64,000 bases of DNA, taken from assembly GCF_009914755.1 (NCBI RefSeq), contig NC_060925.1; one strand, 5' to 3'. Source of the DNA: the human T2T-CHM13v2.0 reference genome, Homo sapiens. The notes under the pieces are model-generated. The model saw only the letters and a program-made list of their open reading frames with translations, did not search any database and had not been told where the DNA came from. Positions within the stretch are counted from its first letter, which is position 1. Each line of letters starts with the position of its first letter. Made by a program: the position numbers and the translations under genes. Positions 25,082-49,881 of the stretch are shown here, one piece after another.

Positions 25082-25727
25082 TAGGTGACCCTTGAACAAC
25101 ATGGGTTTGAACTGCACAGGTCCATTTACAGATGGATTTTCTTCTACCTTCACTACCCCAAGACAGCAAGACCAAGCCTTCCTCTCCCTCCTCAGCCTAC
25201 TCAATGTGAAGATGACAAGGAAGACCTTTATGATGATCCTCTTCCACTTAATGGATAGTAAATATATTTTCTCCTGCTTATGATTTTTGTAACAATTTCT
25301 TTAGCTTAATTTATTATAAGAGTACAAGTATATAATACATACAACACAGAAAATATGTGGGTCTAATATAGTGGTTCACACCTGGAATTCCAACACTTTG
25401 AGAGGCTGAAGCAAGAGGATTGCTTGAGGCCAGGAGTTCGAGACCAGCCCTGGCAACATAGCAAGACCTCATCTCTACAGTGAAATTTTAAAAATTAGCT
25501 GGGCTTGGTGGCACGTACCTATAGACCCAACTACTTAGGAGGCTGAGGTGGGAGGATCACTTGAGCCTGGGAGGCTGAGACTGCTGTAAGCTGTGCTCAT
25601 GCCACTGTATACCAGTCTGGAGGGCAGAGCAAAATTCTGTCTCAAGAAAAAAAAAAAAAATGTGTTAACTGTTTATGTTATTGGTCAACAGGAGGCCATT
25701 AAGTTTTGGAGAAGTCAAAGGTTACAC
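25082..25727 (+). mobile_element. Tigger2a (MER28) DNA transposon, left part
   Basis: TA then terminal repeat taggtgacccttgaacaac; body matches Tigger2a up to gagaagtcaaaggttacac. Confidence 0.88.
25359..25660 (+). mobile_element. AluJ inside Tigger2a
   Basis: Alu dimer, A tail, TSD-like aaaatatgtg/aaaatgtgtt. Confidence 0.88.
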
Positions 25728-25944
25728 TCAGGCCTTGGAGAGAGTAAGGGCTGGGTGTATTTTCAAGTTGAGGGACCACCCTACTCCTACCCCCACATCA
25801 TGGTGTTTCCTCCAGGAGTCCAAGAGCCTTGCCATTCCTCTTGGTGCTTCCTTCAGGAGTTGAAGGGCCTGGCTATTCTTCTCACTCCTGTAGTAGCACC
25901 TATCCAGACTCTCTGCTGTTTTCTGACTTAGGGCAACTACAACC

Positions 25945-26845
25945 ATGGCTGACAAATGGTAGCTACTCACATGGGTGGAAGAAAGGGTACTACACATATT
26001 ACACATATGTAATACACATATTACACTTACACCAAGCTCCTGGCCATCTCTTGTGGCTTCAAGCAGAACCCCAAGCAGTTCATGATCACCTGGATCTTGC
26101 AGATGCACAACCAGTGGGCCACGCCCTGTCCTTGAACTCCTGGGAGCTGGTGGTGCTAATGGGCAACTTGACTCACAATGCCATCTTCAACTACCACTGC
26201 AATGCCTTGTGGGAAAGTGGCATGGCACTGCTTGCCTGGCTGCTCAGAGCCTGGTGCCAGCGCTAAAAGTCCTTCCTGCCCTTTGAGGCCACCGAGCTGC
26301 CTTTCTAGCCCTGGACCACCAAGGAGGAGGGCATCCAGCTGGTGTGCAAGACAGGCATGCTCGACTGGATCTACTGTGAGCCCCTCTCGGCCTCCTTGGA
26401 CCCCTTGTCCCCCTCACATGAGCCAGTGGCACCCAAGGACATGCCCTTCACTCAGGGCCTACAGCAGTGTCTGCTGCTGGCAACACCTGCTGCTGGCAGC
26501 ACCCTCAGAGCTACATCTCTCCCTGGTCACTCTGCTAGAGGCCATGATGGAGCTCAGACCATCTCCAACGTTGGCCTGCTCTGGCATCAGAGCCAGTCAC
26601 GCCACACCAGGCTCATGCTGGAGCCCAATCCAATGCTCAAGCACCTCACAGGCTGGCTCCTTAGCCACAGTGTGCCCAGGGAGAAGGTGGATAAAGAGCT
26701 CACCAAGGTCCTCCTGGAGCTGTACGGCAAAGAGGCCAAGTACAACCACAGCTACCTGGTCTGTGGGCTGGGAGACGAACAGTCCCTACCACCCCTCTAC
26801 TCTGACCAGGCCAGCAGGTTGGAGCCACCCATGCGTGACAACTAG
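25945..26845 (+). pseudogene. Disabled CDS, ERV-L/Fv1-like Gag (~290 codons reconstructed)
   Basis: Collinear motifs YTYTKLLAIS..FKQNP..MITWIL, LLAWLLRAWCQR*, PWTTKEEGIQLV..GMLDWI, PKDMPFTQGL..AAPSEL, GWLLSHSVPREKVDKELTKVLLELY match HERV-L Gag blocks; stops at 26264 and 26306, several frameshifts. Confidence 0.85.
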
Positions 26846-27384
26846 CCCTCAGCCTGGCTCTTGGAGAACGGGACACGGCCTGGCCCCACATTCCTGGAAG
26901 GTGGGGGAAAGGAGGAAGGCTAGATTTCAGGAAACCTGCTTTCTGCTTTGAGTTCAGGGGAGCCAGGCAAGGGAGCCTGGGACCTTGTAGGGGAGACAAA
27001 AAGCCTTGGGCAGTGCCCTCCCAGTGTATCCCTTGAGCCTCCTGTGGGCAAGCCACACCCTCATGCCATGTTCAAGGGACCCAAGAAGACAGGTGTGTCC
27101 TTGCCCTCAACCACTCACATGGGTATCACTGGTCAGAGCTGATGAGGGGAGCAAGCCACATCAGTGGCCAATTGCAATGAGTCTCTGGTGTCCCTGGAGG
27201 GAGTGAGAGCACCCAAGGACATAGTATTCAGTGTGTTACATTTTGGCCTGGGCAGCAAGGTGGGTGGGCACAGCGGTGCAGCCACCCCTCTGCCACATGG
27301 GCCACCAAAGCACTACAGGCCAAGCAGGGAGATCTCATGGTCCATAACATAAAATCATCTTGAAGTTTTTACTCTAATTTTTGT

Positions 27385-27990
27385 GTTTTTTTGGAAACAG
27401 GGTCCCAATGTCCCCCAGGCTAGAGAGCAGGGGCAAGATCATAGTTCACTGGAGCCTTGACCTCCTGGGCTCAAGCGATCCTCTCACCTCAGCCTCCCAG
27501 GCAGCTGGGACCACAGGCATACACCACAATGCCCAGCTAATTTTTTTTTTTTTTTTTTGAGACAGTTTTGCTTTTGTTGCCCAGGCTGGAGTGCAATGGC
27601 GCCATCTCCGGCTCACTGCAACCTCCGCCTCCCGGGTTCAAGCAATTCTCCTGCCTCAGCCTCCCATGTAGCTGGGATTACAGGCATGTGCCACCACACC
27701 TGGCTAATTTTGTATTTTTTTAGTAGAGACAGGGTTTCTCCATGTTGGTCAGAGTGGTCTTGAACTCCCAACCTCAGGTGACCCACCCGCCTCAGCCTCC
27801 CAAAGTGCTGGGATTACAGGCATGAGCCACCGCATCCGGCAAAAGCCCAGCTAATTTTTAAAAATACTTTGTAGAAACAGGATCTTGCTACATTGCCCAG
27901 GCTGGTCTCGTACTCCTGGACTCAAGTAATCCTCCTGCCTTAGACTCCCAAAGTGCTGGGATTACAGGCATAAACCACCACACCTAGCCT
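27385..27990 (-). mobile_element. AluJ with nested AluS (27541-27840) in the retrocopy 3'UTR
   Basis: Reverse Alu motifs; TSD-like tactctaatttt/tactctaaattt; internal repeat gcccagctaattttt. Confidence 0.88.
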
Positions 27991-28382
27991 ACTCTAAATT
28001 TTAAAAGGTCTTTTTAATGCATTATTTTTAGTTAATATTTTATTTTGTGGATACATGACACTTTAATTTTGGTGACAGTCATTTCTCTTTTTGTAATGGT
28101 TCTTCTCTTAAGGCAATGTTTTTCTTTTTGGCATTGCCTCCCACTTTGAAAGCACATTTTTGCTGTTTGATCACTGAGGAAGGAGCTGCCAGTCCCTTCT
28201 GATGAGTCTGGTTTCTCCAGGGGCATATGTGGCCTCGGGATAATCTGAGTTCTGAATCGGACTTTAGGGTATGATGGGGCCAGAATTACACATTACAGCT
28301 TGCGAGAACAGAGCCCTGGTGGTCTGGCTTCACACCTGAGGTGCTGGGCACACAGGCATCCAATAAATGGTGGGTGCATAAA

Positions 28383-28418
<36 letters not shown>

Positions 28419-28421
<3 letters not shown>

Positions 28422-28482
28422 GATTTTTGACAGCACCAGAGGGTTGGCACCCCTAACTCCCACATTGTTCAAGAGTCAACTG
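28419..28482 (+). mobile_element. Tigger2a right end
   Basis: acagatttttgac...ttgttcaagagtcaactg continues the consensus and supplies the inverted terminal repeat. Confidence 0.88.
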
Positions 28483-48369: not shown

Positions 48370-48476
48370 GTGCTCACTTCCACAACACAAATACTAAAAT
48401 TGGAATGGTACAGGGAAGATTAGTATGTGCCCTGCACAAGGATGACATGCTAATTCATAAAGCAGTCCATATTTTT
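48370..48476 (+). pseudogene. Full-length U6 snRNA pseudogene
   Basis: gtgctcacttc...atactaaaattggaa...gaagattag...caaggatgac...tccatattttt aligns end to end with U6; ACAGAGA box mutated to ACAGGGA. Confidence 0.93.
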
Positions 48477-49620: not shown

Positions 49621-49693
49621 GTAGTCACTTCTGCAGCACAAATACTAAAACTGGAATAATACAGAGAAGATTAGCATGTCCCCCGCTCAAGGA
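49621..49693 (+). pseudogene. 3'-truncated U6 snRNA pseudogene
   Basis: Matches U6 nt 1 to ~73 including atacagagaagattagcatg. Confidence 0.9.
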
Positions 49694-49881
49694 GGGAACA
49701 CTATTATAGTCACCCCTTTGAGTAGATCTAAAGGGTTATTTTAATTATTATTTCCTAATGGTATACGGAGGACCAATGGTGGATTTAACAAGAACTCCTT
49801 TGCTTCGGGCAGAGCAAAAAAAAAAAGTTTCCATTCTCAGACAAATCCATGGGTGAGAGAAGGGCTTATAAAATAGTCACC

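What the first reader, a model, noticed from the sequence alone, without database searches (positions are those of the whole stretch)
25082..28482. Insertion anatomy shows the gag sequence arrived as an mRNA retrocopy and brackets its age
Seen: a Tigger2a element stops at gtcaaaggttacac (25727) and resumes at acagatttttgac (28419), with inverted termini at 25082 and 28482. The 2.7 kb between has ~215 nt of leader, the ORF, a long trailer, AATAAA (28362) and ~12 nt later aaaa(ta)n(ca)n. That tail reads as a decayed poly(A) fused with a degenerate TSD (aaaggttacac versus aaaata..tacac). Inference: L1-mediated retrotransposition of a polyadenylated transcript, younger than Tigger2a and probably older than the AluJ/AluS now in its 3'UTR, so the parent was expressed in germline or early embryo. 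It is antisense to the host gene, so its poly(A) signal would be tolerated.
Basis: partly seen in the sequence, partly recalled or inferred. Interest (0 to 1): 0.7.

Follow-up and report, generated by a model that had tools for sequence, protein, structure and literature searches.

The report
Dead retrocopy of lost capsid gene
This is a broken, intron-free copy of the human gene C19orf48, likely pasted by LINE-1 into an older DNA transposon, and it shows that C19orf48 is the ruined human version of a retrovirus-derived, predicted capsid-like gene that is still intact in many other mammals and was likely lost early in primate evolution.

Summary
The anatomy is real. The insert (25732-~28380) is a full-length spliced retrocopy of the SNORD88 host gene on chr19 (C19orf48). 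Four parental exons follow in order, with about 5.5 kb of introns and three snoRNAs absent. It splits one Tigger-type transposon (8 of 12 intact copies join both pieces), has a degenerate 15-nt target duplication, and later gained nested Alus. Corrections: the gag frame is dead (2 in-frame stops, at least 3 frameshifts), the insert starts at 25732, and little poly(A) survives. The new point is the parent. It is a domesticated ERV-L gag (DUF5535, database name 'Fv1-like'), 89-92% identical between marmot and carnivores, ruminants and a bat, with relatives in armadillo and tenrecs, but wrecked in human. The window copy shares no gap with chr19 and only 3 of 26 changes at conserved sites, so it was likely made while the parent was still intact. 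A younger chr3 copy shares two chr19 breaks. The copy is ordinary; the parent gene is the under-described part.

The parts
25082..25359 (.). Left part of a non-autonomous Tigger-type DNA transposon (name Tigger2a recalled), with left terminal inverted repeat, preceded by TA
   Evidence: (I16)
25360..25660 (+). Old Alu (J-type, recalled) inserted into the transposon
   Evidence: (median distance 0.28 to 49 window Alus)
25661..25731 (.). Transposon continues up to the insertion point
25717..25731 (+). Left target-site duplication, about 15 nt; the bottom strand of intact copies reads TTTT/GA here, a variant L1 endonuclease site (motif recalled)
25732..25754 (+). Copy of parental exon 1 (C19:53894085-53894063, about 25 nt behind a TATA box); three sister copies start at the same place
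   Evidence: 1 of 300 shuffles reach the score
25755..25800 (+). Copy of the next leader exon (C19:53891748-53891708)
   Evidence: (0 of 300 shuffles)
25801..25894 (+). Two 41-nt exon-like units in tandem; the second runs on to match C19 exon 53888849-53888786; camel, goat and hippo gene models also match both units
25895..28379 (+). Copy of the long last parental exon (from C19:53888447): end of leader, gag frame and 3' trailer
25945..26845 (+). Dead ERV-L-derived gag frame (DUF5535 at 26555-26836). Breaks near the start (about 25956-26030), frameshifts near 26117, 26481 and 26555, stops at 26264 and 26306
27382..27989 (-). Old Alu (J-type, recalled) in the trailer, with target duplication 27370-27381 / 27990-28002; absent from the chr3 153.5 Mb and chr2 sisters
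27546..27840 (-). Younger Alu (S-type, recalled) nested in the first, with duplication 27531-27545 / 27845-27859
   Evidence: (median distance 0.13)
28362..28367 (+). AATAAA; the chr2 sister has ATTAAA here and its A tail starts 4 nt further on
28380..28422 (+). Remnant A tail plus right target duplication, expanded into (TA)n(CA)n
28423..28482 (.). Right part of the transposon with right terminal inverted repeat

Best explanation
The insert is a dead, full-length, spliced copy of the chr19 gene C19orf48, likely written into a Tigger-type transposon by LINE-1 in an early primate germ line while the parent, a retrovirus-derived gag gene still intact in other mammals, likely still worked. Steps: (1) an ERV-L gag came to lie in the last exon of a snoRNA host gene and was kept by selection (homology and conservation shown; age before the placental radiation inferred). 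(2) Its spliced mRNA was copied by L1 target-primed reverse transcription at a T-rich site, leaving a 15-nt duplication (anatomy shown, enzyme inferred). (3) The promoterless copy decayed neutrally and gained two nested Alus (shown). (4) The parent then broke in the primate line, after this copy and the chr3 153.5 Mb copy but before the chr3 53.0 Mb copy (inferred from shared breaks). The copy most likely does nothing as a gene; its value is as a dated fossil.
For: Parent: the DNA search finds chr19 plus four other places. The chr19 locus carries three SNORD88 and the window none; C19orf48 and mouse 2410002F23Rik are the SNORD88 hosts (PMC11306581, passages). Splicing: four exons match consecutive window stretches in order (shuffles reaching the score: 1, 0, 4, 0 of 300), skipping introns of about 2.3 kb, 2.9 kb and 0.34 kb. 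Apart from Alus and microsatellites, similarity to chr19 stops at the transcript ends. The chr2 sister has a perfect 17-nt duplication and an A tail at the same 3' site. Gag origin: the 5 best other genomic hits, 5 of 5 checked, carry reverse transcriptase downstream. The window groups with the intact mammalian proteins, apart from those relics (100/100). Orthology: the fused upstream part of squirrel and marmot gene models maps 8 kb upstream of C19orf48. Neutral decay: 31 of 135 conserved residues changed; differences to chr19 by codon position are 79/57/81. Order: the window shares no gap with chr19, while chr3 53.0 Mb shares two coding-region gaps with it; chr19 and the two chr3 copies group against the window (99/99).
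Against: Only four A's remain and the right duplication is blurred by a microsatellite. The first 41-nt leader unit best matches a degenerate chr19 stretch that lies upstream of exon 2, out of order. At the last junction, local alignment also runs into the intron end. Two SNORD88 copies gave gappy local scores in the insert above most shuffles (0 and 3 of 100; third copy 40 of 100); these fall in the gag frame and trailer. Distances do not by themselves make the copy younger than the transposon. Outgroup-polarised site counts are noisy (trailer: 10 for the favoured grouping, 8 for a rival), and chr5 differs in base make-up. No non-human primate genome could be searched. 21 of 56 protein hits are unnamed, so an intact primate orthologue is not excluded.
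Confidence: 0.92

Rival explanations
1. The copy is, or was, a working retrogene that took over from the dying parent, or its DNA now acts as an enhancer.
For: Best single human match to the intact cat protein (60%, E 8e-72). About 97 C-terminal codons are open here and in an unnamed 91%-identical protein. The hub's table lists RefSeq enhancers at 26061-27062.
Against: At least five breaks in the aligned part. With frameshifts allowed, the chr3 153.5 Mb copy is as similar (67.5 vs 66.7%). Codon-position divergence is nearly flat and 23% of conserved residues changed. At about one break per 45 codons, a 97-codon open stretch is unremarkable (my estimate). The 162-aa ORF leaves the gag frame for about 25 codons. 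No promoter came along. Enhancer activity could not be tested.
Confidence: 0.07
2. It is a direct relic of an ERV-L provirus, or a retrocopy of a viral RNA, not of a host gene.
For: About 35% protein identity to more than 100 genomic places, of which 5 of 5 checked are gag-pol relics.
Against: 66-67% identity to the intact host proteins against 36-40% for the relics. The leader is made of chr19 host exons. No long direct repeat bounds the insert, and the trailer matches the chr19 exon rather than pol.
Confidence: 0.02
3. It arose by segmental duplication of genomic DNA, or the two transposon pieces are separate insertions.
For: The last exon is long, so most of the insert is colinear with chr19 DNA.
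Against: Introns and snoRNAs are absent, flanks do not match, and the transposon pieces join in register with a short overlap.
Confidence: 0.02
4. It is a retrocopy of C19orf48, but the parent was already dead when it was made, so the copies do not date the loss.
For: All human copies are similarly old (end branches 0.13-0.20, chr5 0.42). Window and chr19 share the same new residue at 3 of 109 conserved sites.
Against: No shared gap between window and chr19; 23 of 26 window changes at conserved sites are not shared with chr19; chr19 and chr3 153.5 Mb share 0.
Confidence: 0.15

Closest known systems
L1-made processed pseudogenes (retrocopies)
   Same: Intron loss, start at the parental transcription start, 3' end at a poly(A) site, short target duplication, T-rich target, neutral decay
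   Different: Nothing in kind. It has no row in the RefSeq table given by the hub, and its parent is itself a dead gag-derived gene.
Fv7, the L1 retrocopy of Fv1 in Mus caroli (PMC7313476, passages seen)
   Same: Retrocopy of an mRNA of a domesticated ERV-L gag, with target duplication and A-rich end
   Different: Fv7 is a few million years old, open and restricts viruses, and lacks exon joins because Fv1 has one exon. This copy shows exon joins, is far older and is dead.
Fv1 (muroid restriction factor from ERV-L gag, about 45 million years; PMC8922424, passages)
   Same: The parent comes from ERV-L gag, and databases name its orthologues 'Friend virus susceptibility protein 1(-like)'
   Different: A different gene: it sits in the SNORD88 host gene, has relatives in all four placental superorders, and is strongly conserved (89-92%) rather than fast-changing. 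Antiviral activity is untested.
C19orf48 (human) / 2410002F23Rik (mouse)
   Same: This is the parent. A 2026 preprint (10.64898/2026.02.23.707583, passages) notes the 284-aa mouse protein as an Fv1-like, predicted gag-derived structure hit.
   Different: Human papers seen treat C19orf48 as a SNORD88 host, a minor histocompatibility antigen source or a doubtful coding gene. None of my searches linked it to gag, to a mammal-wide intact gene or to retrocopies.
gagV1/ERVFRD-2 and PLAC4 (co-opted gag genes of simians, at least 43 million years; PMC12679747, passages)
   Same: Co-opted retroviral gag under purifying selection
   Different: Those are simian-specific and intact in human; this one is of ERV-L type, likely placental-wide and lost in human.
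Metaviral capsid genes ARC, PEG10/RTL, PNMA (PMC10516033, passages)
   Same: Old domesticated capsid genes; the predicted C-terminal capsid domain aligns weakly with theirs
   Different: They derive from Ty3/gypsy elements; that survey does not mention C19orf48 or ERV-L.

Membership tests
L1-made processed pseudogene | Parental introns removed | tested here: met
   three intron intervals and three SNORD88 absent
L1-made processed pseudogene | Homology limited to the transcript | tested here: met
   starts about 25 nt behind the parental TATA box; ends at the same 3' site as the chr2 sister
L1-made processed pseudogene | Poly(A) tail | tested here: inconclusive
   only four A's, 12 nt behind AATAAA; the position agrees with the sister's clear tail
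L1-made processed pseudogene | Target-site duplication of about 7-20 nt at an endonuclease-type site | tested here: met
   about 15 nt, right copy degenerate; TTTT/GA site (motif recalled)
L1-made processed pseudogene | Disabled frame, neutral decay | tested here: met
Tigger2a (MER28) | Terminal inverted repeats, TA duplication, dispersed family of about 430 nt | tested here: met
   (L046 spans 432 nt; the right TA reads CA)
Tigger2a (MER28) | Best match to the Tigger2a consensus among Tigger2 subfamilies | not testable with these tools
   no repeat library; name recalled
ERV-L gag-derived gene | Homology to gag lying upstream of pro/pol in ERV relics | tested here: met
   the class name ERV-L is recalled from the sequences and from the Fv1 naming
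ERV-L gag-derived gene | Capsid fold | tested here: inconclusive
   marmot model, mean pLDDT 64; 23 of the top 50 VIA rows are capsid domains at Z 4.0-5.1, residues 97-200
Domesticated (co-opted) gene, parent | Intact, conserved frame across distant species at one locus | tested here: met
   (identity); synteny shown for squirrel and marmot and, through SNORD88, for mouse; dN/dS not computed
ERV-L provirus | LTRs and pol next to gag | tested here: not met
Fv1 proper | Orthology to the muroid Fv1 locus | not tested
   no mouse genome on hand; the preprint lists Fv1 and 2410002F23Rik as separate genes
Fv1 proper | Capsid-dependent retroviral restriction | not testable with these tools
   needs cell assays

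The most novel reading that the evidence does not exclude
C19orf48/2410002F23Rik is the oldest domesticated true-retroviral gag of mammals: captured from ERV-L before the placental radiation, kept at about 90% identity across orders as a capsid-like host protein, and lost early in primates. A series of at least five human retrocopies, this one among them, brackets the loss. Humans would then lack an ancient capsid-like factor that mice, dogs, cattle and bats keep.
Probability: 0.55. Interest if true: 0.75.

Novelty: new member of a known kind. Interest (0 to 1): 0.55.

Why it matters
The copy itself is one more processed pseudogene. It matters because it exposes and dates its parent. Co-opted retroviral gag genes in the papers seen are about 43-45 million years old (gagV1, Fv1). 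This one has relatives in armadillo, tenrecs, elephant, carnivores, ungulates, bats and rodents, which would make it roughly twice as old (placental root date recalled). Its conservation suggests a steady cellular role rather than an arms race. It gives C19orf48, studied as a cancer marker, snoRNA host and minor antigen source, an origin: a primate gene loss whose RNA was likely kept for its snoRNAs. The function can be tested directly in mouse.

Tried and rejected
Foldseek of the marmot model against PDB and viral structures: no match at E<=0.001. Sequence searches of PDB: nothing significant. The ESM Atlas gave only the family's own cluster at 0.97; gag clusters scored under 0.9 and are leads only. 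Pfam finds only DUF5535. A DNA search with the distal trailer 27985-28400 found only the window, although direct alignment shows relatives on chr2, chr3 and chr19, so the genome search misses diverged copies and copy counts are lower bounds. A small candidate chr19 exon near 53891965 is not in the copy (245 of 300 shuffles reach its score). Short tblastn of other mammals' leaders against chr19 gave only noise. P0048 (284 aa) could not be taken as the mouse protein: it is unnamed and partly out of frame. Divergence dating could not separate the copy from the transposon. Papers not held, so recalled only: Wang and Han 2020, Boso 2021, Tykodi 2008, Pace and Feschotte 2007, Young 2018.

Full report
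Observation. The coordinates hold. Inverted arms at 25083-25105 and 28459-28481 bound the element. AATAAA lies at 28362 and is followed 12 nt later by four A's and a (TA)n(CA)n run. A pattern spanning the transposon break, with a free gap of 1-8 nt, hit 23 places in the genome, all with a 3-nt gap; the reversed control hit none. I fetched 12 of the 23. In 8 of 12 both window pieces align in register, and 4 gave no hit for the short right piece. The left piece extends to 25731 and overlaps the right piece, so the target duplication is about 15 nt and the insert begins at 25732. The family names Tigger2a, AluJ and AluS are recalled.

The parent. A DNA search of the genome with 25720-27370 found chr19 53.887 Mb, chr3 153.53 Mb, chr3 53.03 Mb, chr2 173.81 Mb and chr5 22.71 Mb at 66-76% identity, one short piece at 88%. 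Only the chr19 locus has introns with three SNORD88 snoRNAs; the window has none. SNORD88 lies in C19orf48 in human and in 2410002F23Rik in mouse (PMC11306581, passages). Exon by exon, chr19 exon 1 matches 25732-25754, the next leader exon 25754-25781, the third 25861-25876 (25847-25876 with its flank) and the last exon from about 25900, with 1, 0, 4 and 0 of 300 shuffles reaching the scores. The introns between them (about 2.3, 2.9 and 0.34 kb) are missing. Exon 1 starts about 25 nt behind a TATA box, and both chr3 copies and the chr5 copy start at the same place. The chr2 copy is 5'-truncated, with a perfect 17-nt duplication and an A tail within 4 nt of the window's 3' end. Against a tidy picture: the first of two 41-nt leader units matches a degenerate chr19 stretch out of exon order, the last junction is ambiguous by local alignment alone, and two snoRNAs gave gappy above-shuffle scores inside the gag frame and trailer. 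Camel, goat and hippo gene models match both 41-nt units, so the doubling is likely old.

The coding frame. It is dead. No frame is open from 25945 to 26845. A frameshift-aware alignment gives 66.7% identity to the cat protein over 261 residues, with stops at 26264 and 26306 and frameshifts near 26117, 26481 and 26555, plus breaks near the start. The 162-aa ORF carries DUF5535 but leaves the gag frame in its middle. 31 of 135 conserved residues are changed, and differences by codon position are nearly flat. An unnamed 117-aa protein, 91% identical over the C-terminal part, is probably a primate orthologue of this copy; its open stretch is short enough to be chance.

What the parent was. A search with the marmot protein returned 56 relatives: 35 named (carnivores, ruminants, camel, hippo, whales, bats, horse relatives, rhino, rodents, armadillo, tenrecs, elephant; no primate) and 21 unnamed. 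Marmot is 89-92% identical to cat, dog, sheep, hippo and a bat, 74% to armadillo and 55-56% to tenrecs. The same query type finds more than 100 human places at about 35% identity; 5 of 5 checked have reverse transcriptase downstream, so the gene derives from retroviral gag (ERV-L class recalled). In a tree of 17 rows (11 of the intact proteins, the window, 5 relics), the window and the intact proteins form one group apart from the relics (100/100; long branches flagged). Synteny is shown for squirrel and marmot, whose gene models fuse an upstream gene that maps 8 kb upstream of C19orf48; it was not tested for armadillo or tenrecs. The predicted structure is of middling confidence (pLDDT 64); in the wide structural search 23 of the top 50 rows are capsid domains, each weak (Z 4.0-5.1). 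A capsid fold is likely, not shown.

Order of events. Nesting puts the copy after the transposon. Both trailer Alus came later: they have their own duplications, and the chr3 153.5 Mb and chr2 copies show the empty site. Outer and inner Alu differ from other window Alus by 0.25-0.28 and 0.13. Distances do not resolve copy and transposon: 0.21-0.25 to sisters and 0.26-0.27 to chr19, against a median 0.19 for the transposon arm in 7 of 12 copies that had been picked by an exact pattern. The window shares no gap with chr19; chr19 and chr3 53.0 Mb share two coding-region gaps, one of them frameshifting; chr19 and both chr3 copies share two small trailer gaps and group at 99/99. At conserved residues, window and chr19 share 3 of 26 window changes, and chr19 and chr3 153.5 Mb share none. 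So the window copy and the chr3 153.5 Mb copy likely left an intact parent, and the chr3 53.0 Mb copy left a broken one. End branches of 0.13-0.20 put all this tens of millions of years back, likely in early primates; site counts with chr5 as outgroup are noisy, and no other primate genome was available.

Mechanism. L1 target-primed reverse transcription of the spliced, polyadenylated mRNA at a TTTT/GA site in the transposon is inferred from the anatomy and established knowledge. Decay and Alu insertion are shown. No function of the copy is supported; the enhancer tiles in the hub's table and tolerance through antisense orientation to LUZP1 were not tested.

What is in print. Searches: C19orf48 (109 papers, 40 listed); C19orf48+gag; Fv1/ERV-L/co-opted/SNORD88; gene co-option; Friend virus susceptibility protein/DUF5535/Fv1-like (61 papers, 30 listed); 2410002F23Rik; oldest co-opted gag; Tigger2a ages; domesticated capsid; C19orf48+pseudogene+retrovir. 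Only listings were seen for most. Passages were read in: a 2026 preprint, which calls the 284-aa mouse 2410002F23Rik an Fv1-like, predicted gag-derived protein (its supplements are closed); PMC11306581; PMC3071930 and PMC6593292 (minor antigen); PMC4383229; PMC6101605 (C19orf48 as a doubtful coding gene); PMC8922424 (Fv1 about 45 million years; 177 co-option events in Wang and Han 2020); PMC12679747 (gagV1 at least 43 million years); PMC7313476 (Fv7 retrocopy); PMC10516033, PMC11905727 and PMC5753468. None links human C19orf48 to gag, to a mammal-wide gene, to a primate loss or to this copy. Wang and Han 2020 was not held and may list the locus, and databases already name the orthologues Fv1-like.

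Verdict. The copy is an ordinary, apparently unannotated processed pseudogene (confidence 0.92). The interest lies in its parent, an ancient domesticated gag that humans have lost and whose loss these copies help to date: new member of a known kind, interest 0.55.

Noticed in passing
P0002 model residues 199-260 (window about 26590-26760): The DUF5535 part aligns weakly (Z 4-5) with small helix-loop-helix nucleic-acid-binding domains (Rho N-terminus, endonuclease VII C-terminus, SAP domains): a possible RNA- or DNA-binding module behind the capsid domain.
   Followed up: no
window 27370; C19:53887180; C3:53032710: Three separate Alus sit within a few tens of bases of the same T-rich trailer spot in the window copy, the parent and one chr3 copy; they look like different subfamilies (recalled).
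   Followed up: partly
L028, C3:153531101-153531533: The chr3 153.5 Mb copy keeps about 350 nt of the intron behind leader exon 2, so it came from another splice form. Both chr3 copies keep CpGs (observed/expected 0.58 and 0.54, against 0.14 in the window).
   Followed up: partly
C19:53892470-53892300: A degenerate fourth SNORD88-like unit followed by a degenerate exon seems to lie in intron 1 of C19orf48 (by eye; exon match; no Rfam hit).
   Followed up: partly
L054, C12:107836062-107836249: A further short piece of the trailer (76% to the chr3 copy), perhaps a sixth, 5'-truncated retrocopy.
   Followed up: partly
C19:53902234-53903044: Remnant of the upstream neighbour gene that squirrel and marmot models fuse to the gag gene.
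   Followed up: partly
window 25895-25930: This leader stretch is homologous to the chr19 reading that I recall as the C19orf48 minor histocompatibility peptide; not checked, the primary paper was not held.
   Followed up: no
window 26061-27062: Two RefSeq enhancer tiles in the hub's table lie on the dead gag frame, a GC-rich stretch (56-59% against about 40% around).
   Followed up: no
window 48370-48476, 49621-49721, 1395-1512: Two U6 copies (annotated pseudogenes) and an SRP-like match, probably an Alu.
   Followed up: no
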